In this document: positions 28,588 through 57,524 of the stretch, piece after piece
Layout of the letters: each line of letters opens with the position of its first letter
Position numbering within the stretch: the stretch's first letter is position 1
Virus record (IMG/VR): IMGVR_UViG_3300003323_001224
Span: 12,639-76,638 of that record
DNA: 64,000 nt
Strand: one strand, 5' to 3'
Source of the DNA: a virus
Notes under the pieces: generated by a model
The model's database searches: none
The model's input: the letters and a program-made list of their open reading frames with translations, nothing else
What the model was told of the DNA's origin: nothing
Made by a program: the position numbers and the translations under genes

Positions 28588-28663
28588 CGGGTAGTGCGGA
28601 AGTGGTCATCCTCCGTGCCTTGGAAGCACGGCAACGCTGGTTCGAATCCAGTCTACCCGACCA
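28588..28663 (+). tRNA. tRNA-Pro(TGG)
   Basis: Cloverleaf, CGTGC-CT-TGG-AA-GCACG anticodon arm, GGTTCGAATCC, encoded CCA. Confidence 0.9.
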
Positions 28664-28752
28664 GGAAGGTATGCCAGGCGGTTGGTAGCGCCAGCCTGTC
28701 TTGAAAACAGGAACCCATTCAGTTGGGCGGGGTTCGAATCCTCTGCCTTCCG
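28664..28752 (+). tRNA. tRNA-Ser(TGA)
   Basis: CCTGT-CT-TGA-AA-ACAGG, long variable arm, GGTTCGAATCC. Confidence 0.85.
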
Positions 28753-28760
28753 CAAATGAA

Positions 28761-29258: not shown

Positions 29259-29260
29259 AG

Positions 29261-29334
29261 TAGCGAGATCGGGAATCGAACCCGAGACCTTTGAGTTATG
29301 AATCCAATGCTCTTACCATCTGAGCTATCTCGCC
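29261..29334 (-). tRNA. tRNA-Met(CAT), elongator type (Ile2 not excluded)
   Basis: GGCGAGATAGCTCAG...TT-CAT-AA...GGTTCGATTCCCGATCTCGCTA. Confidence 0.85.
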
Positions 29335-29357: not shown

Positions 29358-30806
29358 TTAAAATTTCCTTGAAAAATCATGCTCCATATTTCCTAGCATA
29401 AGGCCTAACCCATCCTTTAAATATTCTTCCGTCATGCTGGGTGTAGCATGCCCGCAGTATTGTTGGATAAGCGCAATAATAACCCCCCCCATGTACATAT
29501 GGATGCAGCGGGTATGCTTCCAGGAATAATTAGTTAATTTAGGTGAAAATCCTCCAGGCTCCCGTACTTCATCCCTGAATTTGTCGCTAAAAAAAGCGCG
29601 ATTCGTAGGGACCGGTCCCGGTGGCCCATCTATACCAAAGATGTAGTAGTGACCCGGACAATCCTTTAAACCCATTCTGATAAAAAGTTCTATCAGTTCC
29701 GGTTCCATGTGAATGAATCTGCCGCGCCCCTTTTTTGCCTTTTCGTCGGGAATCATTAATTTATTTCGACCCCAAAGAATATTTTCCACTTGTAAGTTAC
29801 GTGTTTCCTTATCAGGCCGGGTGCCCGTGTAGTATATTACCTCACTAAAATCATGCAGGTATTTTCCCCAATAAGGGACAGCCAGAATTGCCTTTTTCAC
29901 AGCCGGTATGATACTATCTTCAAAAGGAGTATGCCTGATCTTAGTTCCCTTCCTCATCAACTCGACACCTTCAGCAGGGCTTTTGCTTATAATCTGTAGT
30001 TCGTCTTTACAATAATTAAAAAATGTAACAAACTTTTTTACCTTATCATTGTATGTCAAAGGCGCCCATTCCTTTTCCTCTCTCTTTGCCGCGAGAAAAT
30101 CTTCCAGGTCATCTTGCGTGAAGGTCGCAATATCATCATACCACTGGCTTTCTTCCAATAGCGTATTTTTAGCTATATGCTTTTTCAACAAATTCAAGGG
30201 CACTGCATATGACTTTCGGTTCACTTCATCATAGTGTTGCAAAAAAAGCTCACTGGCCGCATTCAAGGTAATGACCTGCTTTTTAGCTTTCTTTTCTGCC
30301 TCTTGTTCGGCTAAGATCCTATTATACTCGTCTATCTCATATTGGAATGGGCTGAAGCCATTCTCTAGCTCTTTAAGCATGGTGGCCAACAGCTGGAGCG
30401 CAAATTCAGGGTCCTGCGCGACTCCTTTGAAAACGCGAAAACGTTCCCATTCTCCCGGCGCATTGTGTCGCTGTTGCAATACGGGCGGTAGCCCAGGAGG
30501 CACCTTAAAATAGTATTCAATATACTTTTTCTTCCCCTCAACGAGCTTGGGCGGTTTCCAGGTTATGTATTTTCCCGTTGACACTTTTTTGGCAATTTCC
30601 TTTGTCAAAAATACGAACTTTTTGATTTTCAGGTCTTTGTTTTTTTTAGGGTTGATCGCGTGTATCAACTCGGCATTTTCGACTTCCGGAGTATTGCTGA
30701 TTTTCAGCGCTTTAGATTTTTGCATGGTGATCTTTTTTAGGCGATTTTGGCAATTTTTTGACAATTTTTCTGAGCCAAATCTACATCGAATTCGCCATTT
30801 CTGCAA
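29358..30806 (-). CDS. int: Tyrosine recombinase / integrase
   Basis: YYTGTRP (R), KAK (K), YSWKHT, CGHA, TEEY (Y); SAM-like domain upstream; true start probably downstream of 30806. Confidence 0.85.
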   Translation of the reverse strand: MQKWRIRCRFGSEKLSKNCQNRLKKITMQKSKALKISNTPEVENAELIHAINPKKNKDLKIKKFVFLTKEIAKKVSTGKYITWKPPKLVEGKKKYIEYYFKVPPGLPPVLQQRHNAPGEWERFRVFKGVAQDPEFALQLLATMLKELENGFSPFQYEIDEYNRILAEQEAEKKAKKQVITLNAASELFLQHYDEVNRKSYAVPLNLLKKHIAKNTLLEESQWYDDIATFTQDDLEDFLAAKREEKEWAPLTYNDKVKKFVTFFNYCKDELQIISKSPAEGVELMRKGTKIRHTPFEDSIIPAVKKAILAVPYWGKYLHDFSEVIYYTGTRPDKETRNLQVENILWGRNKLMIPDEKAKKGRGRFIHMEPELIELFIRMGLKDCPGHYYIFGIDGPPGPVPTNRAFFSDKFRDEVREPGGFSPKLTNYSWKHTRCIHMYMGGVIIALIQQYCGHATPSMTEEYLKDGLGLMLGNMEHDFSRKF

Positions 30807-30833
30807 TTAAATCCGGAGGATTTTACAATTAGG

Positions 30834-33102
30834 GTTGTGAATTCCTTTTAAAATTGAACGCTCAGTAACTAGAATACAAACTGATGTTCAACCTTTACTG
30901 TTGTAATTACATTTACAAAAAGTGCATTCAACATTGATACATATTACGGCAAGCAACATGAATGTTGTGACTTCCTTTTCAAACATATTATTTAGGGAGG
31001 GCAATAAAATAAGATGGATTATAAAGCATTATAGTCGTACTATCCTTAGTACGCTACTAAGCTTGCGTTGTGACTTCCTTGTTCAGTGGTTCAATATCTT
31101 GCGATCTTCTCTAAAAAACAACAGTCAATGAGTGGCCAAAACTCTGGCAGTTGTGAATTCCTTTCAAAATGGATTTTCCTACAACCCAAGCTGCGTAGGT
31201 AAACCTTCCTGTTGTTGTGATTTCCTTTTAAATAGATGCAGCCTACAATTCCCCTTCAACTAACTTTCAAAGCCATATAACCATTTTCTCGTTGTGATTT
31301 CCTTTTAAATAGATGCAGCCTACAACTGGTGAGTAGGTTGTTGTTTCCGAGGAGCAGTTGTGACTTCCTTTCAAAATTAAGCTTCCTACAGCCAACCTCC
31401 TCTATCCTTATATTCCTGAGTTGTTGTGACTTCCTTTCAAAATTGAGCTTTCTACAACAAATGCTTAAAATTGGATTCCATAGCCATAGTTGTGAATTCC
31501 TTTCAAAATTAAGCTTCCTACTACTGGACAGGGCCTGGGGTAACAGGACATAGGTTGTGATTTCCTTTCAAAATTAAGCTTCCTACAAAGTATAGCTTTT
31601 TGGATATTTTTCACGGTAGTTGTGACTTCCTTTCAAAGGAAAGGTTCTTGCAACTTTCATAGGTGGGGTTTACATTGTTATCGAGTTGCGACTTCATTTC
31701 AAAAATTGAGGTTGATACAAATGGCGCCCCTGGACAAGTTCTTTGTCACCGTTGTGACTTCCTTTCGAAATCAAGCTTTCTACAACCCTAGCCCACATAG
31801 GCACGGGATACCATTGGTTGTGACTTCCTTTCGAAATTAAGCTTTCTACAACTCATTAATCCTGCCTCCGCTTATCGTTCCTGTTGTGAATTCATTTCAA
31901 AATTAAGCTTCCTACAACAATTATGGCAAATATATATAACGACTCCTAAGTTGTGACTTCCTTTCAAAATTAAGCTTCCTACAACCCCTGGCGATTAACG
32001 TGACGTCCCATTAATGTTGTGACTTCCTTTCAAAATTAAGCTTCCTACAACCAAACAATGTCATACTTTTATAATTAACTCGTTGTGACTTCCATTCAAA
32101 ATTAAGCTTCCTACAACTAAGTTCACGAACATCATATGAAGATAGGAGTTGTGACTTCCTTTCAAAATTAAGCTTCCTACAACCAGCCGACGGGCGGCTA
32201 TTTAAATAGGTTTGTTGTGACTTCCTTTGAAAATAAAGCTTCCTACAACAGTCAGCCCAATTATAAGAGATACACCTATGTTGTGACTTCCTTTAAAAAT
32301 AAAGCCTCCTACAACTTACCAAAACCAGTGACAACAACGGGACGTGTTGTGACTTCCTTTCAAAATTAAGCTTCCTACAACAATGTTCGATCATTCCTTT
32401 TTTGAAAGTACGTTGTGACTTCCTTATAAGCTTCCTACAACCGGCGCATGGCATGGGTACGCAAATGAAGTGTTGTGACTTCCTTTCAAAATTAAGCCTC
32501 CTACAACACATCAGCAGCGCAGATACCGGCAATTGCCGTTGTGACTTCCTTTCAAAATTAAGCTCCCTACAACAAAAATGAAAAAGGTTTACAATGTCTC
32601 GTAGTTGTGACTTCCTTTCAAAATAAAGCTTCCTACTACGGTCGATGTTTTGATAAGTCATCACTCATAGTTGTGACTTCCTTTGAAAATAAAGCTTCCT
32701 ACAACTGTTGTGAGCAACTACGTATAGGCGTGCTCTGTTGCGACTTCCTTTAAAAATAACCTTCCTACAACAGCGTGCCCAAGATCAGCTACGACGCCAA
32801 TGTTGTGACTTCCTTTCAAAATTAAGCTTCCTGCAACCAGCAACCAATCCTCAATCATTGCTTTGAAGTTGTGACTTCCTTTCAAAAATAAGCTTCCTAC
32901 AACAGGACCTGATAACAGGCCACACGACATTACGTTGTGAATTCCTTTCAAAATTAAGCTTCCTACAACCGAGATCCTTTTCACGTCAAACGACCAGCAG
33001 GTTGTGAATTCCTTTCAAAATTAAGCTTCCTACAACAGGCCCAGTCCGCTCCCGTCCGTCAGCCGCGTTGTGAATTCCTTTCAAAATTAAGCTTCCTACA
33101 AC
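30834..33102 (-). CRISPR. CRISPR array of about 34 repeats (30 clear from 31150, 4 degenerate), 36-nt repeat, mostly 30-nt spacers
   Basis: + strand repeat GTTGTGA(C/A)TTCCTTTCAAAATTAAGCTTCCTACAAC with ~66-bp period; degeneration towards 30834 puts the leader at the 33103 side. Confidence 0.97.
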
Positions 33103-33281
33103 CTGTTTCGCTAGAAAGCACACCTCTCCTGCATTACAGCCTATATTGTCACAATAAAAATGCGAAACATTCTCGAAAAAATGAGAATAATAAATTAAAA
33201 AAAGGATTCAGGAGTGCTTCACGGCCTCCCGCTCAGGACGTACAACCGCCCCCTAATATTTTCAAAGAACTTGATGAGATT
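33103..33281 (-). ncRNA. Leader plus candidate guide scaffold/tracrRNA
   Basis: About 80-nt GC-rich segment ending in a T-run just after the cas gene stop, then an AT-rich leader. Confidence 0.4.
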
Positions 33282-34376
33282 TTATTGTATCAAAAGTTCA
33301 ATCCCAAACTTTTTGCATTTGTATTGTATCATGTTTATCAATCCATGATACGACCAGTTTCTTAACAAGAACTGATTTTTTGGATCTTTCGCTTCCTCCT
33401 CTTTCTCCTTCTGATCAACGAGAATCAATTTGCCGCATCGATATGCGACGCACAAATCTACCAATTTCTTACTATAACTGTGCAATTTGGTCTGCACATA
33501 ATGTCTTTCTTCTTCAGAGAAACGTTCAGTGGCTTGCAGCTTCCGTTTTCTACCTTTGCCTCCTTTGTTGAACCGAGCGGCTCTTTGCGCTCTTCTTAGT
33601 CCCTCTTGTATACTAATTCTACCGTATAAGAACTCATCTTTGGTCCCGATGGATAATTCCTTTCTATTTACTTTGGCCACAATAGGTACATCCAGGCTGA
33701 GAGAAGCTGTCATAGCAACGTCCACATCCAAAACTACTGGTTTTTTTTCAATTTCAAAGACTGCTAATAAAAAAATTTTCTTTTTCTTCAACTGTATAGA
33801 ACTATCGCAAAGAGAATGTATGCCTTTCAAAGCTTCCTCCATCAGCAACCGGTTATTGCTAAAGTCATAACCGAAATGCGTTCGAAACGGAATGCCCCAC
33901 ACTTCAAATTTGTAATTTTCGCTGTCTTCAGATAAAGACCAATTGCGCATAAGAATAGTTGGCAGCGGCATTGGAATGTCTCGGCGATAGGTTCGCAAAG
34001 CGCGCTTTCCGGAAAAATATTCCTTCCGCTCCTTGCTAATGTTTGCTGTGACGAGGTTGTTTATCGCAGAAACACTTGCCATTGGCGCCTCGCCCTTGAA
34101 CTTTTTTGAATTTACCTGGTAGGTTGTATTGGGACGGCTCGTAGTTAATATCCCCTCTTCCGCTTTAATTCTATCCTTCAATGTGATTTTGAAATCATCA
34201 TGAAGATAAAAGAATTCGGAAATATTTTCCTGAAAATATTGATGGGTGGCCGTGTGGTTAGCAGCCCTAAATATTATTTCATTCCATTTGCGCAATTTTG
34301 CATAATTATCTTTAAACTCTTTTTTATCAGAATCTATAAATAATTGAATTTTTCTTGTTATGATATTTTTAGCCAT
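33282..34376 (-). CDS. Cas12f/TnpB-family protein, predicted nuclease-dead
   Basis: ITRKIQL N-terminus, CDSSIQL, GGKGRKRKL, H.YSKKLVD and LRNWSY..L..MIQYK...GI Cas12f motifs; RuvC-I (TASLS) and RuvC-II (LILVD) lack catalytic D/E; ends before the Zn finger and RuvC-III. Confidence 0.8.
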   Translation of the reverse strand: MAKNIITRKIQLFIDSDKKEFKDNYAKLRKWNEIIFRAANHTATHQYFQENISEFFYLHDDFKITLKDRIKAEEGILTTSRPNTTYQVNSKKFKGEAPMASVSAINNLVTANISKERKEYFSGKRALRTYRRDIPMPLPTILMRNWSLSEDSENYKFEVWGIPFRTHFGYDFSNNRLLMEEALKGIHSLCDSSIQLKKKKIFLLAVFEIEKKPVVLDVDVAMTASLSLDVPIVAKVNRKELSIGTKDEFLYGRISIQEGLRRAQRAARFNKGGKGRKRKLQATERFSEEERHYVQTKLHSYSKKLVDLCVAYRCGKLILVDQKEKEEEAKDPKNQFLLRNWSYHGLINMIQYKCKKFGIELLIQ

Positions 34377-35234: not shown

Positions 35235-35236
35235 AG

Positions 35237-35306
35237 GTGCGGTCGCCGGATTCGAACCGATCTTTAGGGTTATGAGCCCTATGTGCTGCCGTTACACTAC
35301 CCCGCA
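35237..35306 (-). tRNA. tRNA-Met(CAT), initiator-like
   Basis: TAGGG-CT-CAT-AA-CCCTA (three G-C pairs), GGTTCGAATCC; acceptor stem imperfect. Confidence 0.7.
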
Positions 35307-35315
35307 AAATTACAG

Positions 35316-35387
35316 TTCTCCCTACGGGATTCGAACCCGTGATGACGCCGTGAAAGGGCGCCGACTTAACCGCTTGTCGAAGGGAGC
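35316..35387 (-). tRNA. tRNA-Glu(TTC)
   Basis: GCGCC-CT-TTC-AC-GGCGT, GGTTCGAATCC. Confidence 0.85.
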
Positions 35388-35390
35388 GGG

Positions 35391-35484
35391 TGCGGAGGGG
35401 AGGATACGAGCCCCCACGAAATTAACCTAGAATAAATTTCCATTCATTAGACTGAATGCCGTCTACCAGTTCCGGCACCTCCGC
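35391..35484 (-). tRNA. Atypical Leu-type tRNA with CTA in an irregular anticodon loop (pseudo-tRNA or suppressor)
   Basis: GCGGAGGTGCCGGAACTGGTAGACGG 5' half, long variable arm, CATTCA-GTCTAA-TGAATG, deviant T loop. Confidence 0.55.
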
Positions 35485-35499
35485 AAATCCAATACTTTA

Positions 35500-35820
35500 A
35501 AATAGGGGCAGGTCGTATCCTGCCTGCCCCCAATCATTGTTACGGTTTACAAGACCGCTGCTGATAATGAGTCAGCTGGCAAATTGAAGTTTTCAAACAG
35601 CCTAATGCTCATGCTGTCGTCTGACGATCTACCATCTGATCTACCCCCCCTCCGGGGCGGCTGCTCCGGAGGGGGGGACAGGACTCGAACCTGCGACTTT
35701 CAGATTACCGACTGCTTGACTTCAACAAGTGAAACTTAGCTTAAAGCTTTTGACGCAATGCTTACGCTCATATCTAGGATCTGTTTAAGCTGATGCTAAA
35801 GCTAAAGCTTTGTCAAAGAT
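35500..35820 (-). ncRNA. Structured ncRNA containing a circularly permuted tRNA-like domain (35620-35704)
   Basis: T arm, then loop-closed acceptor stem, then D arm, closed by TCTGA/TCAGA and further stems. Confidence 0.65.
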
Positions 35821-36612
35821 TTATTTTCCGTGAATATATCCAAAGATCTTTTCAGCTGTTAGGCCAGACTGTACAACTTCAACTTCATTGGCTTTTGCCA
35901 AAGCCTCCCGCACTGACTCCTTAAGTTTACTAAGCCTATACAACATTGCCGCTCTATCGCGATGGGAAATCTCACCGGAAAAATGCTGTACTGTCTGCAT
36001 CCCCAAAACGACTTGCGTATCCTTAGAAGCTATTTGAGGCTTATAACCAGATCCATCCTTTAGCAGTTGAATATTTGGATCGGGGAGAATGTATGATTCC
36101 TTCAAGGTAGTTCTATTGGCACTTTCGAAAACTTCTGTTTCCCAAATATTTTCTGACTTCATCTCGCTGTCGTTGGATCGCACCCATTTGATATCATCTC
36201 TCCGGACAGGTAGCGTTTCGTACATTTTTGATAATTCTTTCGAATCCAAAAATGACCGCAAGCGCAAAAGTTCAAGTGTCGTATACTTCCCCCAATCTTC
36301 GCCATCAACAATAAGATTGGCGGTCGCTTTGCCGGTGGCATTTGTCGCCTCAATGGCAAACAAATTTGTTATGTGATCGCCGCAGGTGTCCAGAAAATAT
36401 TTGAGATACTCCGGCACTGAATTTTGTACCGGTTTGAATCCCCTTTTCGAAGGTTCATCTAAGTAATCGCCTTCTGCTTGATAAGTTTGCCGCACTCCCA
36501 CGAAAATTTGGGACTTATGCTTATCAGCAAAAGTGGCTACATATTCCTTCAGCAATGCATTGTACTGAGTACCTGAATGTTCTGTTTTGGCAAGCAAAGC
36601 ATTTTGTTTCAT
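35821..36612 (-). CDS. Conserved hypothetical protein directly upstream of the ncRNA
   Basis: 263 aa from MKQNALL (the longer ORF start overlaps tRNA-Lys); ANLIVDG..ELL.L..LP and FSGE..RL.KLK..V..A..KAN motifs. Confidence 0.7.
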   Translation of the reverse strand: MKQNALLAKTEHSGTQYNALLKEYVATFADKHKSQIFVGVRQTYQAEGDYLDEPSKRGFKPVQNSVPEYLKYFLDTCGDHITNLFAIEATNATGKATANLIVDGEDWGKYTTLELLRLRSFLDSKELSKMYETLPVRRDDIKWVRSNDSEMKSENIWETEVFESANRTTLKESYILPDPNIQLLKDGSGYKPQIASKDTQVVLGMQTVQHFSGEISHRDRAAMLYRLSKLKESVREALAKANEVEVVQSGLTAEKIFGYIHGK

Positions 36613-36630
36613 AATCCTTTTTTTTAATTG

Positions 36631-36703
36631 TTCCGCAACCACGGATCGAACGTGGCACTCCCTGCTTAAAAGGCAGGTGCTCTAACCACTGAGCTATTGC
36701 GGA
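36631..36703 (-). tRNA. tRNA-Lys(TTT)
   Basis: CCTGC-CT-TTT-AA-GCAGG, GTTCGATCC. Confidence 0.85.
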
Positions 36704-37432: not shown

Positions 37433-37647
37433 TTTTCAAAGTCCACTTTAATGCTTGAAGGATAATTATACAATCAACAAGATCGGTTTGTTTCATTAAA
37501 ATTCTTCTATAATATGGCCTATCAGCTGTTGGTATCTTCCATGCACATATCATCCATGCAACATGCATAGCTCGTTGCCTATTTATGTTTCGTTCACAAT
37601 GGTTGGAACAAATAGAACAGCCACATAAAAGTTGGTCATTACCCATG

Positions 37648-37719
37648 CTCCCGCACCTGGATTCGAACCAGGGACCTAGAGATCCAAATTCTCTTATTCT
37701 ACCGCTGAACTATGCGGGG
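37648..37719 (-). tRNA. tRNA-Gln(TTG)
   Basis: AGAGA-AT-TTG-GA-TCTCT, GGTTCGAATCC, unpaired 1-72. Confidence 0.8.
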
Positions 37720-38251: not shown

Positions 38252-38395
38252 TTTAATAAAGCGAGTTGCCCATCACGCGCACCTGGGCCAGGTGTTGAAC
38301 CGAAGTCTCGCCAGTCCGCCGGAAAGGAGAGATAATCGTGCGCTTATTGACTCGCTCAGGATTTACCCCTTTATAAATCCTACACCGTAAGAAGG

Positions 38396-38467
38396 TGGCA
38401 CCGGGCAGAGTCGAACTGCCTACGCCGGGATTTTCGGTCCCGCGCTCTACCGCTGAGCTACGATGCC
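38396..38467 (-). tRNA. tRNA-Phe(GAA)
   Basis: CGGGA-CC-GAA-AA-TCCCG, GTTCGACTC; C at position 33. Confidence 0.85.
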
Positions 38468-41989: not shown

Positions 41990-42070
41990 ATCAAAAAAAT
42001 TTTGATTGACTGAAATCTCGTCAAAAATTGATCACATGTGATCGTGTGTGACTACATGTGACTATATTTG
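41990..42070. promoter_or_regulatory. Switch region: operator copy 3 (41990-42006), palindrome GATCACATGTGATC (42030-42043), TATATTTG Bacteroidota -7 box
   Basis: Between divergent HTH genes. Confidence 0.6.
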
Positions 42071-42112
42071 ATCGTGATGGATGCAATATACTAAACGCTA
42101 TCCAATTCGACA

Positions 42113-42352
42113 ATGAATTCGACACTAATATCTAAGAAAAAAGTCAGAGAAATTTTTGAAGTGCTGAGCGAGAGCGAGTTAAGGCAGCTCGAAGATCGCG
42201 TTGCGGGGTATGGTTGGCTGAGCGATACGGCACGCAGGGCGGAGGTACATGTCAATACGATCAAAAAAATCTTGATGAAGGGGTATGGCTACCCGACAAC
42301 TATTCAAAAAATTCGCAACATCCTGACCCATGAAAATAGTACACATCAATAA
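42113..42352 (+). CDS. Cro-like HTH protein
   Basis: SDTARRAEVHVNTIKKIL helix-turn-helix; first gene of the rightward operon. Confidence 0.55.
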   Translation: MNSTLISKKKVREIFEVLSESELRQLEDRVAGYGWLSDTARRAEVHVNTIKKILMKGYGYPTTIQKIRNILTHENSTHQ

Positions 42353-47508: not shown

Positions 47509-47566
47509 AATGAGCCCCGCGTAGAAACGCAGGGCGTGTTGTTGATGTGTTCTAACTTCAAAACAG

Positions 47567-47637
47567 AGACCATCCAGGGAGTCGAACCCTGCTGCACGGT
47601 TTTGCAGACCGCGTGCTAACCGCTCACACAGATGGTC
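47567..47637 (-). tRNA. tRNA-Cys(GCA)
   Basis: GCGGT-CT-GCA-AA-ACCGT, GGTTCGACTCC. Confidence 0.85.
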
Positions 47638-55076: not shown

Positions 55077-57524
55077 GAAAGCAAATCGCAGGTTATATTA
55101 AGAGCAAGAGAAGCAAGATAAAAAAAGAGAGGACGTCCGTTGTCCTCTCTTGCTCTAATCAAATGCCCCTCAACCATTAAACCTTATCCTATTAGACTTC
55201 TAAGATAAATAAGTGGTTGCACATAAAAAAATCTTTTTTGAACCTATTAACAAAAAAATACGTGTTTTAATTTGGTTAAAACAAATGTTTTACTACCTTT
55301 ATGCCAGATCATTGAAAGACGGGCCATTCAATTGGCGGGACCGCAACCCTGTATCAGGCATGGGCTGTTAGTGGTTATATGACTCTCTCTCAGGTGTTTC
55401 TACATCTATTTACCAGGATCATATAGCTGTTACTCGCAAGAGCTGATAATTCGATTCTTGTTGCACACTGTCCGCACGGACAGCAGGCGCACCCTGGTCA
55501 TACATAGTATGGCACACGGATAAGACGGCAAGGCAGGGAGTAACGCGGTTACACGTTCAGTATAGTATGTCACGGGACATATGTATGCCGCCAATTCGTG
55601 ATTGGTGAACGTGCTAAAACTATTCAATATGAAAGCAATATTCATAATCGTAACACTAGCCATCTTTATCACCGGCTGTTCAAGCAAGCGAAAATATCGT
55701 ATACTCGCTACACAAAAAACGATTTACTACGTGCATTCAAAAGTAATTATAAACGAGTATGACAACGGCTTCAAAGCGGGGGACACGGTAAGATATGACT
55801 ATAAATATGATGGATATGTTCCTGAAAGCTATACTGAAGTGATACTTTCAGGCCTCTAACCCCTCACTGTGTAGGCAGTCTGTCCGGCTCATGACTGGAC
55901 AGGGGTGCTAAAACTATTTATTATGTCTTACTCTATGCTCACAGAAGAACAGTCAAAGAACATCGAACGATTAGCAGCTATACATAAGGCAATTGTCGCA
56001 TTGAATGAAGCTATATTAATCAACAGTGCGGATTGCTCCGCCACTATGGTCAGGGAAACGGTTATTAGTATGGCTGAAAGGAGAAGGGCAATGGATGCCA
56101 GATTCAAGGATGTTAGGGAATATTAAAGGCCCTGACAATCGCTTAAACGGGGTCTAGCCTTACCTAGACCCCGTATATCTCATCCACAAGGGTTTAAAGC
56201 CCGCTATCCTGGTGCAAGGTCCGGGGATGGATGCTAAAACTTACGACTATGTATACTATCAACGGCGCTAACTATTTCACAGATAAAGAATTCCGGCAAG
56301 GTGCTAAAGAGATGACCAACCGGCAATTGTTAAGGGATTATAGGTTGTCAGTAATACATCTGGCCGAATTGGAAGAAAAGAAGGCCAGCGGCTGGGATAC
56401 CTATCTGGGTGATAACATCATTGGCCGTATCTCACAAGAGAAAAAAAGCCTTCGTGCTACGGAGAATGAATTGGTAGCGCGCGGTTATGATCTTAGTAAA
56501 ATCGTCATCAAATAGCAATCATATGAAATCCTATCGTTTAAAAACCCTGGCAATGATGTTGACGTACGTTGCCCTTTTGTTGATCGTATCTATTATTGTG
56601 TATGTGAGCAGCCCCCGCGGCTGCCATTTGTTTTAGGCTATCGTAAGATAGCGTCCTTCCCTTAGCACAAGGGTAGTGCACTGGACTGAGCACCGGGGGT
56701 AACGGTTCGACTCCGTTATGGACGGCTCAACAACAATCAGTACCATGTCAAATGTTATCGCCAAGATCGAAAAGAAAGATGACATCGAAGTATTAACCGT
56801 TACGTTGCCGATCAGCAAGCGGCCAAGCGCGTCAGGTAAGACGATGATCATAGCCAGCACGAACGGCAACCAGCCGTTAAGCATTACCATTGACGGTAAG
56901 CGGGTCATCCTGGGATTGAATGCCTATATAAAGTAGGCACTCACTTGTCTCTATACGTTAAGGGTAGACGGCCACATTAATATGTGGTAGTGGCGTAGTC
57001 GAGTGCGCTTAGAGACCTCAACAAATTGCAATTATATGAATGTTCACATTACCATGTTTCACGAACGTGTGGAACAATTTAAAGCGCAATGGCCTATGGC
57101 AACTGTTGTAAAGGTAGGCAGGTATTACACCACCTATGCGCTGCCAAAGAAGTTATACGAAAAGGTGTATCTCCATGTAATGGAATACGGTTCAATCGAT
57201 GCACCAGCATGTATTAACTACGTGAAGATAACGGGAATAATGGGGGATCAACCGCTAAAACTGTTTATCAAAGAAAAGGATTGCAACAAGGTTTTAGAAC
57301 GGCTAGTAAAAGCCCATAATGATAAGCAGTTAACCTATCCGGCGCAACCCTTCCATGTTACCATGAAAAAGGTCCGAATAGAAAGGCATCGACGTAACAG
57401 CGTAGAGCACATTGTACTGAAGTCTATGACGGCAATTGGTTTTGCTGCATAGCTGGCAGGCTGTAGGGGTAGCAATACCGCCCGTCCTTCGCTGGACATA
57501 CAGCCCTCAACAAATTGTAATTAT

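What the first reader, a model, noticed from the sequence alone, without database searches (positions are those of the whole stretch)
35500..36612. Circularly permuted tRNA mimic (YrlA/Y-RNA-like) inside a larger ncRNA, following a conserved 263-aa gene, with no Ro60 in view
The - strand order is TCTGA, AAGTC, T arm (GCAGG-TTCGAGT-CCTGT), a long C7TCCGG...CCGGAG7 acceptor-like hairpin closed by a loop, TA, D arm (GATC-AGATGGTA-GATC), G, TCAGA. The tRNA 3' half therefore precedes the 5' half. The anticodon stem continues into GCAGTCG/CGACAGC and TTGAAGT/ACTTCAA helices, and the flanks carry repeated AGC(T/A) motifs. Known: bacterial YrlA RNAs have this topology and partner Ro60. Here the adjacent gene is not recognisably TROVE, which suggests a different protein-ncRNA pair, possibly a decoy against anticodon nucleases or an RNP scaffold.
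Basis: partly seen in the sequence, partly recalled or inferred. Interest (0 to 1): 0.78.

Follow-up and report, generated by a model that had tools for sequence, protein, structure and literature searches.

The report
Phage tRNA-mimic RNA paired with DUF7873
Just after a phage gene of unknown function (DUF7873) lies a folded RNA built around a tRNA whose halves are in swapped order, and this gene-RNA pair recurs in every relative I could check, mostly without Ro60, the usual partner of such RNAs, so it is probably an undescribed protein-RNA unit.

Summary
On the minus strand, 35620-35704 is a circularly permuted tRNA look-alike. Its order is T arm, a 7-bp acceptor stem capped by a hairpin, then the D arm. 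The anticodon stem opens into a long two-part helix instead of a loop.

It is the core of a larger RNA unit (about 35388-35817) that follows a 263-aa DUF7873 gene. The unit has:
- a 5' domain closed by a covarying helix and carrying NNNAGC hexamer repeats;
- the permuted tRNA head;
- a terminator-like hairpin with a conserved loop;
- a second tRNA-like head in normal order (35388-35485) with no usable anticodon loop.

My covariance model of the core hits all 58 viral and all 13 Bacteroidota genome loci that have DNA downstream of a DUF7873 homologue. All are on the gene's strand, mostly 114-170 nt after the stop. Covariation is strong (95.7% of cells paired, 19 of 21 pairs with compensatory changes).

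The core resembles YrlA Y RNAs but fails their membership tests. It scores 35.7 bits against a cut-off of 69, the Ro60-binding motif is present in 1 of 64, and this complete 76.6-kb phage has no TROVE gene.

DUF7873 has no known fold or function. The scan has found this pair many times before on other DNA. Function is inferred, not shown.

The parts
35821..36612 (-). DUF7873 protein gene (263 aa; stop TAA at 35823-35821)
   Evidence: Translation. Pfam PF25283, E 3.5e-31, 109 bits against a cut-off of 27. 152 homologues. 1429 clusters at 50% identity. AlphaFold2 model pLDDT 85 with no fold match.
35749..35817 (-). 5' domain closed by helix P1: TTTGAC 35817-35812 pairs with GTCAAA 35754-35749. 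Inside are four NNNAGC hexamers (35810-35783) and an apical CCTAGATAT motif (35778-35770).
   Evidence: The P1 strands covary across the family, for example ATTACCT/AGGTAAT, CTGTTA/TAACAG, TCCAAC/GTTGGA, TGACTCT/AGAGTCA. Hexamer runs of 3 or more at exact 6-nt spacing occur in 36 of 64 members against 2 of 1280 shuffles. Coordinates.
35735..35748 (-). Second block of AGC repeats (AGCTTTAAGCTAAG) directly after the P1 3' strand
   Evidence: The same AGCTTTAG-type block follows P1 in the relatives printed.
35584..35725 (-). Long two-part helix carrying the tRNA-like head. Distal TTGAAGT 35725-35719 pairs with ACTTCAA 35590-35584. Proximal CAAGCAGTC 35718-35710 pairs with GGCTGTTTG 35602-35594. 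They are separated by an AAA bulge (family motif UGAA). The internal loop 35619-35603 holds AGC motifs.
   Evidence: MFE fold. Duplex folding of the flanks in 64 family members gives mean -17.6 against -10.3 kcal/mol for shuffles, with z below -2 in 41 of 64 and the same two-helix-plus-bulge layout.
35620..35704 (-). Circularly permuted tRNA-like core: anticodon-stem halves 35704-35700 and 35624-35620; V loop 35699-35695; T arm 35694-35678; 7-bp acceptor 35677-35671 with 35650-35644, capped by hairpin 35670-35651; U8 and A9; D arm 35641-35626
   Evidence: Rfam YrlA 35.7 bits. Model R1. Covariation: 95.7% paired and 19 of 21 pairs with double changes, against 37-46% when the partners are slid. 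T loop TTCRANTC, G18 G19 and U8 conserved. The G15:C48 / A15:U48 Levitt pair covaries.
35543..35578 (-). Two small hairpins (CAGCTGA...TCAGCAG and CGGTCTTGTAAACCG), not seen at this position in the relatives examined
   Evidence: MFE fold. Relatives have 33-73 nt (mostly 34-45) between the core match and the 3' hairpin; this window has 83.
35495..35532 (-). 3' hairpin (10-bp stem, loop CAGGATACGA) followed by a U-rich tail; terminator-like
   Evidence: Terminator scan. A homologous hairpin with the loop motif (G)AAGGATATTGA and completely different stems is found in 39 of 64 members.
35388..35485 (-). Second tRNA-like head, in normal order: 7-bp acceptor, 3-bp D stem, 6-bp stem with 6-nt loop GUCUAA in place of an anticodon arm, long variable arm, T loop CUCGUAU
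   Evidence: ARAGORN calls it 'tRNA-???'. No Rfam tRNA match. Model R2 finds the same kind of element 75-107 nt after the permuted head in 17 of 23 loci not used to build it (19 counting two that are ordinary tRNAs), and 0.4-0.85 kb further on in three others. On an alignment of 18 matches (the window's included), 98.5% paired and 14 of 15 pairs with double changes.

Best explanation
This is one copy of a self-contained phage and mobile-element cassette. It consists of a stand-alone DUF7873 protein gene followed by a structured non-coding RNA of about 330-430 nt. The RNA has a 5' domain with NNNAGC hexamer repeats, a YrlA-type circularly permuted tRNA head on a long helix, a hairpin with a conserved loop, and a second tRNA-like head in normal order.

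Shown here: the RNA structure is conserved and covaries; its linkage to DUF7873 held in every relative tested; it is independent of Ro60 at the level of gene content.

Inferred: the protein and the RNA form a ribonucleoprotein. The non-enzymatic-looking protein would recognise the repeated single-stranded motifs and/or the hairpin loop. The tRNA-shaped heads would engage host tRNA-handling factors. The permuted head keeps a 7-bp acceptor stem, G1:C72, and a U-C-N-A tail like the tails of the phage's own tRNA genes. Its acceptor cap varies from 16 to 131 nt. It may therefore be cut by RNase P and RNase Z and given a CCA end, as shown for Mycobacterium smegmatis YrlA.

Because the cassette sits inside phage tRNA gene clusters, the most likely field of action is tRNA or translation conflict during infection (decoy, sensor or platform). 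The actual function is unknown.
For: Structure: permuted head; 5' domain; long helix; hairpin; second head.

Linkage: R1 hits all 58 viral loci and all 13 Bacteroidota genome loci that have downstream DNA, on the gene's strand. This includes DUF7873 proteins only 30% identical. It also hits a more Pfam-typical DUF7873 locus in a sampled Bacteroidia genome (259.6 bits, L080).

No other conserved protein neighbour was found in 31 loci.

Discrete RNA gene rather than only a 3' UTR: the spacer between the stop codon and P1 varies from about 3 to about 240 nt. In L006 the spacer contains what looks by eye like a terminator hairpin.

Ro60 independence: no TROVE in this complete phage. TROVE is absent from 14 of 17 related records that are at least 90% complete. 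The Ro-binding motif GNCGAAN0-1G is present in 1 of 64. In one phage that has TROVE, a separate candidate Y RNA lies next to TROVE, 10 kb from the DUF7873 unit.

Protein looks like a binder rather than an enzyme: across distant members only G39, N91, P135, W143 and N242 are invariant, and it is always a single domain of 245-270 aa.

Processing idea: the tail after the acceptor is TC in 29 of 33 and GC in 4 of 33 gene-adjacent heads, with A at the fourth base in 29 of 33. The phage's own tRNA genes mostly lack an encoded CCA but have C at position 74. The precedent is in Chen et al. 2014 (PMC4201824).
Against: There is no transcript, binding or processing datum: no RNA run holds the sequence.

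DUF7873 is not basic (median pI 6.5) and has no recognisable RNA-binding fold, so protein-RNA contact is inferred from gene order alone.

In the window the RNA starts about 4 nt after the stop codon, so a role in cis on the mRNA cannot be excluded.

Five of 35 related phages, and 7 of 14 genomes carrying the unit, do encode Ro60 somewhere, so Ro60 could still be a partner in trans.

A later check recorded in the scan's own notes (e1-2703945) put the bold protein-RNA reading at 22 in 100.
Confidence: 0.6

Rival explanations
1. It is a divergent Y RNA that works with Ro60 (Rsr) supplied by the host, or in some phages by the phage. DUF7873 would be an accessory or an unrelated neighbour.
For: The core is the best and only Rfam match (YrlA). 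The Levitt-pair covariation is the same as reported for YrlA (PMC4201824). TROVE is present in 5 of 35 related phage records and in 7 of 14 Bacteroidota genomes carrying the unit. In two phages TROVE, a tRNA array and the DUF7873 unit lie on one strand, with TROVE 5-8 kb upstream of the DUF7873 RNA.
Against: The score is about half of Rfam's cut-off. The middle stem of the YrlA model is not matched. The Ro-binding motif is present in 1 of 64. There is no TROVE in this complete phage, nor in 14 of 17 complete relatives. TROVE is never within the 4 kb that defined YrlA loci. The linkage to DUF7873 held in all 71 testable loci, while linkage to TROVE is sporadic.
Confidence: 0.12
2. It is a cis-acting 3' element of the DUF7873 mRNA. 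The tRNA-like folds would serve as RNase P/Z processing punctuation or as 3'-end protection within a polycistronic tRNA-cluster transcript, with no function in trans.
For: In the window the RNA begins about 4 nt after the stop codon. The only promoter-like site is a weak one inside the coding sequence (9 of 12 matches; the count is no higher than in shuffles). The cassette lies in a tRNA array.
Against: More than 300 nt of conserved, covarying architecture, with sequence motifs conserved in loops and repeats, is far more than a processing signal needs. The spacer to the gene varies up to about 240 nt, and in L006 it holds what looks by eye like a terminator hairpin. The cassette is kept in bacterial loci where ARAGORN finds no ordinary tRNA genes nearby.
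Confidence: 0.15
3. It is a split translation RNA: a permuted tRNA gene, or a two-piece tmRNA-like molecule, that is processed, aminoacylated and used on the ribosome.
For: It has a 7-bp acceptor, canonical T and D loops, and a tRNA-like tail. The hexamers in the window can be read as Ala/Leu-rich codons ending in a stop (KALALASA*).
Against: There is no anticodon loop in the permuted head. ARAGORN finds no tmRNA. The Rfam tmRNA models give only a 15-bit partial match. The alanine identity pair G3:U70 occurs in 0 of 39. The putative reading frame is not conserved: there are in-frame stops within the repeats of L002, L004 and L008 (sequences).
Confidence: 0.05

Closest known systems
YrlA (Y RNA-like A), Rfam RF02553; Ro60/Rsr-bound bacterial and mycobacteriophage Y RNAs (Chen et al. 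2014, PMC4201824; Wang et al. 2018, bioRxiv 10.1101/312249)
   Same: A tRNA mimic with T arm, V loop and D arm. The acceptor-like stem is closed by a loop. The anticodon stem continues into a helix formed by the RNA's 5' and 3' parts. The tRNA tertiary-pair positions are conserved, including the covarying 15:48 pair. [quoted passage not shown]
   Different: It scores below the family threshold (35.7 bits here and 35-42 in three close relatives, against 69). It has no GNCGAAN0-1G motif. It is not next to a Ro60 gene, and there is none in this phage. The RNA is three to four times longer, with a 5' hexamer-repeat domain, a conserved-loop hairpin and a second tRNA-like head. In every locus tested it is linked to DUF7873 instead.
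Two-piece (circularly permuted) tmRNA of Alphaproteobacteria, Cyanobacteria and some Betaproteobacteria (my own knowledge; Rfam families in clan CL00001)
   Same: The gene order is permuted, so that the T arm and 3' acceptor strand precede the 5' acceptor strand. The intervening segment could be excised. A long helix replaces the anticodon arm.
   Different: It has a full D stem. There is no G3:U70, no encoded CCA, no conserved tag reading frame, and no SmpB-like partner. Neither ARAGORN nor Rfam detects it.
Phage tRNA gene clusters
   Same: The cassette is embedded among ordinary phage tRNA genes on the same strand. Its heads share their T and D loop consensus and their 3' tail style.
   Different: Neither head has a canonical 7-nt anticodon loop in this window. 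The family's second head shows no constant anticodon.

Membership tests
YrlA (Rfam RF02553; Chen et al. 2014) | tRNA-like domain: T arm, V loop, D arm, acceptor-like stem closed by a loop, anticodon stem open into a helix | tested here: met
YrlA (Rfam RF02553; Chen et al. 2014) | Score at or above Rfam's gathering threshold (69 bits) | tested here: not met
   35.7 bits, model positions 23-89 only. Not listed in the gathering-threshold search. Three close relatives score 35-42 bits with the middle stem unpaired.
YrlA (Rfam RF02553; Chen et al. 2014) | GNCGAAN0-1G motif near the 5' end (proposed Ro60 contact) | tested here: not met
   Present in 1 of 64 distinct family members. Absent from the window.
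YrlA (Rfam RF02553; Chen et al. 2014) | Encoded within 4 kb of a Ro60/TROVE gene, on the same strand | tested here: not met
   No TROVE in the whole 76.6-kb record, which is 100% complete. TROVE is present in 5 of 35 related records, always more than 5 kb from the unit.
YrlA (Rfam RF02553; Chen et al. 2014) | Bound by Ro60/Rsr | not testable with these tools
   Needs a pull-down. A host Ro60 is possible: 7 of 14 carrier genomes have TROVE.
Two-piece tmRNA | Detected by ARAGORN or by the Rfam tmRNA models | tested here: not met
   No tmRNA. beta_tmRNA gives 15.3 bits against 84, over the T arm and acceptor only.
Two-piece tmRNA | G3:U70 alanine identity pair in the acceptor stem | tested here: not met
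   At pair 3:70 the counts are C:G 19, A:U 11, G:C 6, U:A 1, U:G 1, unpaired 1. G3:U70 occurs in 0 of 39.
Two-piece tmRNA | Conserved tag reading frame | tested here: not met
   The hexamer-repeat frame has in-frame stops in L002, L004 and L008. No ORF is conserved 3' of the head (sequences).
Permuted tRNA gene (red-alga type) giving a decoding tRNA | An anticodon loop restored after processing | tested here: not met
   The 5-bp anticodon stem continues through an internal loop into 16 more base pairs. There is no 7-nt loop.
Pfam DUF7873 (PF25283) | Whole-protein score above the curated cut-off | tested here: met
   109.2 bits against 27, residues 2-261 on profile positions 3-242 of 244.

The most novel reading that the evidence does not exclude
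DUF7873 and its two-headed tRNA-mimic RNA form a ribonucleoprotein that does not need Ro60. The permuted head is opened by RNase P and RNase Z and receives a CCA end, giving a two-piece tRNA-shaped particle. Phages and other mobile elements use it to intercept or sense host factors that act on tRNAs, for example anticodon nucleases or other tRNA-targeting defences.
Probability: 0.22. Interest if true: 0.85.

Novelty: new variant of a known kind. Interest (0 to 1): 0.72.

Why it matters
Bacterial Y RNAs are the only described class of non-coding tRNA mimic with a closed acceptor stem, and they are defined by their partnership with Ro60. Here the same RNA design is fused to other conserved domains and tied to a different, widespread protein of unknown fold (about 1,400 sequence clusters). 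It usually occurs in genomes without Ro60.

If the two form a particle, it is a new RNA-protein machine built on tRNA mimicry, carried by many phages inside their tRNA gene clusters. It would then be a direct lead into how phages manipulate or protect the host's tRNA machinery.

The RNA is absent from Rfam, and DUF7873 is absent from the papers I could search. Even the descriptive step, a new RNA family with a defined protein neighbour, would be useful for annotation: ARAGORN currently calls one of its heads an undetermined tRNA.

Tried and rejected
- PHROGs and NCBIfam scans of DUF7873 gave nothing. A profile search of PDB sequences gave only chance SNAP-29 hits.
- Foldseek against PDB and BFVD gave no match at E 0.001 or better. 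VIA-align wide gave only generic helical-hairpin matches at Z about 7 over residues 1-127. The ESM Atlas gave no usable hit.
- blastn of the RNA against GenBank phages found no match.
- The first search for related loci, with single-protein patterns, found none. The alignment-based search worked.
- The first covariance model was too long to calibrate.
I analysed neighbourhoods by all-against-all BLAST of ORFs instead.
- Converse test with an RNA-only DNA pattern (TTAGTGTTG, gap, AGCTTTAG): 74 matches. 68 have neither the tRNA-like head nor DUF7873, so I take them as chance matches. The 6 real ones are contigs already in hand. The test is therefore uninformative.
Neither paper is held.
- Considered by eye on the sequences and dropped: a pseudoknot between the hairpin loop AGGAUAU and the apical CCUAGAUAU motif (the two are similar, not complementary, and most members have no complement); a tag-like ORF in the hexamers (the frame is not conserved).
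- The R1 hit in record G015 near TROVE is a junction of two ordinary tRNAs.

Full report
**What is there**

The window is most of a 76.6-kb viral record that CheckV rates 100% complete. Around the finding, the minus strand carries many short genes and tRNA genes.

The 263-aa ORF at 35821-36612 matches Pfam DUF7873 (E 3.5e-31). It matches nothing in PHROGs or NCBIfam.

Directly after its stop codon lies an ORF-free stretch whose minimum-energy fold is much more stable than shuffles (z = -4.8). It ends in a terminator-like hairpin with a U-rich tail.

**The observation**

In 5'-to-3' order on the minus strand they are: the 3' half of an anticodon stem, a V loop, a T arm, the 3' acceptor strand, a capping hairpin, the 5' acceptor strand, U8-A9, a D arm, and the 5' half of the anticodon stem.

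The MFE fold reproduces these four stems. Rfam's only meaningful match in the region is YrlA, at 35.7 bits over the tRNA-like part of that model.

One detail differs. The strand GCAGTCG does not pair with CGACAGC in the fold or in the family pattern. Instead CAAGCAGTC pairs with GGCTGTTTG, followed by a three-base bulge and the TTGAAGT/ACTTCAA helix.

AGC(A/T) motifs are six-fold enriched. Four of them stand at exact 6-nt spacing.

**Relatives and linkage**

A protein search found 152 homologues. A profile search of 1.84 billion representatives found 1429 clusters. All of the 150 best listed are single-domain, and the full-length ones are about 245-290 aa.

From an alignment I fetched 60 viral loci and 15 Bacteroidota genome or MAG loci from Cyclobacteriaceae, Chitinophagaceae, Raineyaceae, Spirosomataceae and others.

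I built a covariance model of the permuted core from 8 sequences (R1). It hits every locus that has DNA downstream of the gene: 58 of 58 viral loci and 13 of 13 genome loci. All hits are on the gene's strand. Most start 114-170 nt after the stop, and a few start 212-424 nt after it. L001 is cut just after the gene. L049 has no hit near the gene.

The rule holds for proteins only 30% identical to the window's (L075-L077). It also holds for a more Pfam-typical DUF7873 locus found in a sample of 300 Bacteroidia genomes, where the family is otherwise rare.

An all-against-all comparison of ORFs in 31 loci found no other conserved protein gene within 3-4 kb. The RNA is therefore the only constant neighbour of DUF7873.

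**Covariation in the permuted head**

On 39 distinct sequences, 95.7% of cells form standard pairs. Nineteen of 21 pairs show changes on both sides. When the 3' partners are slid by 1-3 columns, only 37-46% pair. The alignment is fitted to the model, which favours the structure, but the margin is very large.

The T loop (TTCRANTC), G18-G19, U8, A14 and A21 are conserved. Positions 15 and 48 covary (G:C 28, A:U 4, G:U 3). Chen et al. 2014 reported the same signature for YrlA.

**The rest of the RNA**

1. A helix P1 of 5-7 bp starts a few to about 240 nt after the stop. It closes a 5' domain, and its two strands differ completely between members while staying complementary. Inside it lie three or four NNNAGC hexamers. 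Runs of three or more at exact 6-nt spacing occur in 36 of 64 members against 2 of 1280 shuffles. There is also an apical CUAGAUA-like motif, and a conserved UUAGUGUUG just before the 3' strand.

2. The head sits on a two-part helix with a UGAA-type bulge.

3. A hairpin follows, mostly 33-45 nt after the core match and 83 nt in this window. Its stems differ entirely between members while its loop is conserved: (G)AAGGAUAUUGA, or CAGGAUACGA in the window. My strict pattern finds it in 39 of 64.

4. A second tRNA-like element in normal order follows. In the window it is 35388-35485. ARAGORN calls it 'tRNA-???' with a 6-nt loop, and Rfam's tRNA model does not match it. Model R2 finds the same kind of element 75-107 nt after the first head in 17 of 23 loci not used to build it, or 19 counting two that are ordinary tRNAs. 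These include genome loci where ARAGORN finds no ordinary tRNA genes nearby. In three more loci it lies 0.4-0.85 kb further on. On an alignment of 18 matches (the window's included), 98.5% of cells pair and 14 of 15 pairs have double changes. Its middle part is 28-107 nt long, and ARAGORN assigns no constant anticodon.

**Is it a YrlA?**

It works like one in shape, but it fails the family's defining tests.
- It is below the gathering score (35.7 bits here, 35-42 in three close relatives, against 69). The middle stem of the model is unpaired.
- The proposed Ro60-contact motif GNCGAAN0-1G is present in 1 of 64.
- No TROVE gene exists in this complete phage.

Among 35 related viral records, 5 have a TROVE match, and 3 of the 17 that are at least 90% complete do. 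The TROVE gene is always more than 5 kb from the unit. In one of them (G005), the TROVE gene is followed by its own candidate permuted module, separate from the DUF7873 unit 10 kb away.

Seven of 14 Bacteroidota genomes holding the unit have TROVE elsewhere, for example 1.5 Mb away on a complete chromosome. A host Ro60 acting in trans therefore cannot be excluded, but nothing ties the RNA to it.

**Other kinds considered**

- Two-piece tmRNA is rejected. ARAGORN and Rfam give no call. G3:U70 occurs in 0 of 39. There is no conserved tag frame.
- A permuted gene for a decoding tRNA is rejected, because there is no anticodon loop.
- A tandem-tRNA artefact is excluded, because the two acceptor strands pair with each other across a cap.

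**The protein**

The AlphaFold2 model is confident (pLDDT 85, pTM 0.72). It shows three long helices and a sheet of long hairpins. Foldseek and VIA-align give no convincing match.

Across distant members only G39, N91, P135, W143 and N242 are invariant. This does not look like a catalytic constellation. The median pI is 6.5. I therefore read it as a binding or scaffold protein. This is inference.

**Mechanism**

Shown: a conserved, covarying, multi-domain RNA whose linkage to DUF7873 held in every testable locus and was independent of Ro60 gene content.

Inferred: a ribonucleoprotein.
- The repeated single-stranded NNNAGC units, and the two similar loop motifs (CUAGAUAU and AGGAUAU), are the kind of sites that multimeric RNA-binding proteins use.
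- The permuted head keeps a 7-bp acceptor and G1:C72. Its tail is U-C-N-A: TC in 29 of 33 and GC in 4 of 33 gene-adjacent heads, with A at the fourth base in 29 of 33.
- That tail resembles those of the phage's own tRNA genes, which mostly lack an encoded CCA but have C74.
- The cap varies from 16 to 131 nt in gene-adjacent heads.

These features fit excision by RNase P and RNase Z with CCA addition, as demonstrated for M. smegmatis YrlA. This is untested here.

The variable spacer to the gene, and what looks by eye like a terminator hairpin in the L006 spacer, argue for a separate RNA gene rather than a mere 3' UTR.

**Earlier notes of this scan**

The same DUF7873-RNA pair has been reported many times on other DNA, with one or two permuted heads and often an encoded CCA. 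One note on this same genome flags the same element.

My results agree and add two points for this Bacteroidota-phage clade: the second head is in normal order, and CCA is replaced by CNA. A lead to Burroughs and Aravind 2016 could not be read. No paper in the library mentions DUF7873.

**Verdict**

This is a real and well-supported feature. Its closest known kind is YrlA, but it is not a member of that family. It is probably one component of an undescribed protein-RNA cassette, and its function is open.

Noticed in passing
window 35388-35485 (-): ARAGORN's 'tRNA-??? (ct)' is not an ordinary tRNA. It has a 6-bp stem with the 6-nt loop GUCUAA, a long variable arm and the T loop CUCGUAU. It belongs to a conserved second tRNA-like head of the DUF7873 RNA unit.
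   Followed up: yes
L014:2243-2320, L015:2242-2321, L018:2240-2320, L022:2236-2314, L024:1827-1914, L059:6354-6430, L030:5128-5204: Related large phage records carry extra permuted tRNA-like modules with short acceptor caps (4-16 nt) inside their tRNA arrays. They lie about 700-1200 nt upstream, or 1.4-2.6 kb downstream, of DUF7873, in addition to the gene-adjacent one. They are framed by their own helix, for example AAAGTCTCT/AGAGACTTT.
   Followed up: partly
L163:1501-1647 (-) = record G005 42004-42150: In one related phage the TROVE (Ro60-like) gene is followed by its own candidate permuted tRNA-like module (R1 32.5 bits; acceptor CCTGCTT/AGGCAGG). The classical Ro60-Y RNA pair and the DUF7873 unit may therefore coexist 10 kb apart.
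   Followed up: partly
L008:4084-4201, L009:3912-4054, L019:4034-4110: In some relatives the second head has a 7-nt loop that reads as a stop-codon anticodon: UUA in L008 and L009 by eye, and CUA in L019 by ARAGORN ('tRNA-Pyl'). I did not test whether these act as suppressor tRNAs.
   Followed up: no
window 29358-34376: Earlier notes on this genome describe a tyrosine integrase, a CRISPR array of about 34 repeats, and a Cas12f-like ORF about 1 kb from the cassette. I did not examine them. One earlier report on other DNA also found CRISPR repeats next to a DUF7873 unit.
   Followed up: no
window 28588-28753, 29260-29334, 35236-35387, 36630-36703, 37647-37719, 38394-38467, 47566-47637, 56656-56726: The phage carries at least nine ordinary tRNA genes. 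Only tRNA-Pro encodes its CCA end. A second 'tRNA-??? (ga)' call at 56656-56726 reaches only 33.7 bits against Rfam's tRNA model.
   Followed up: no
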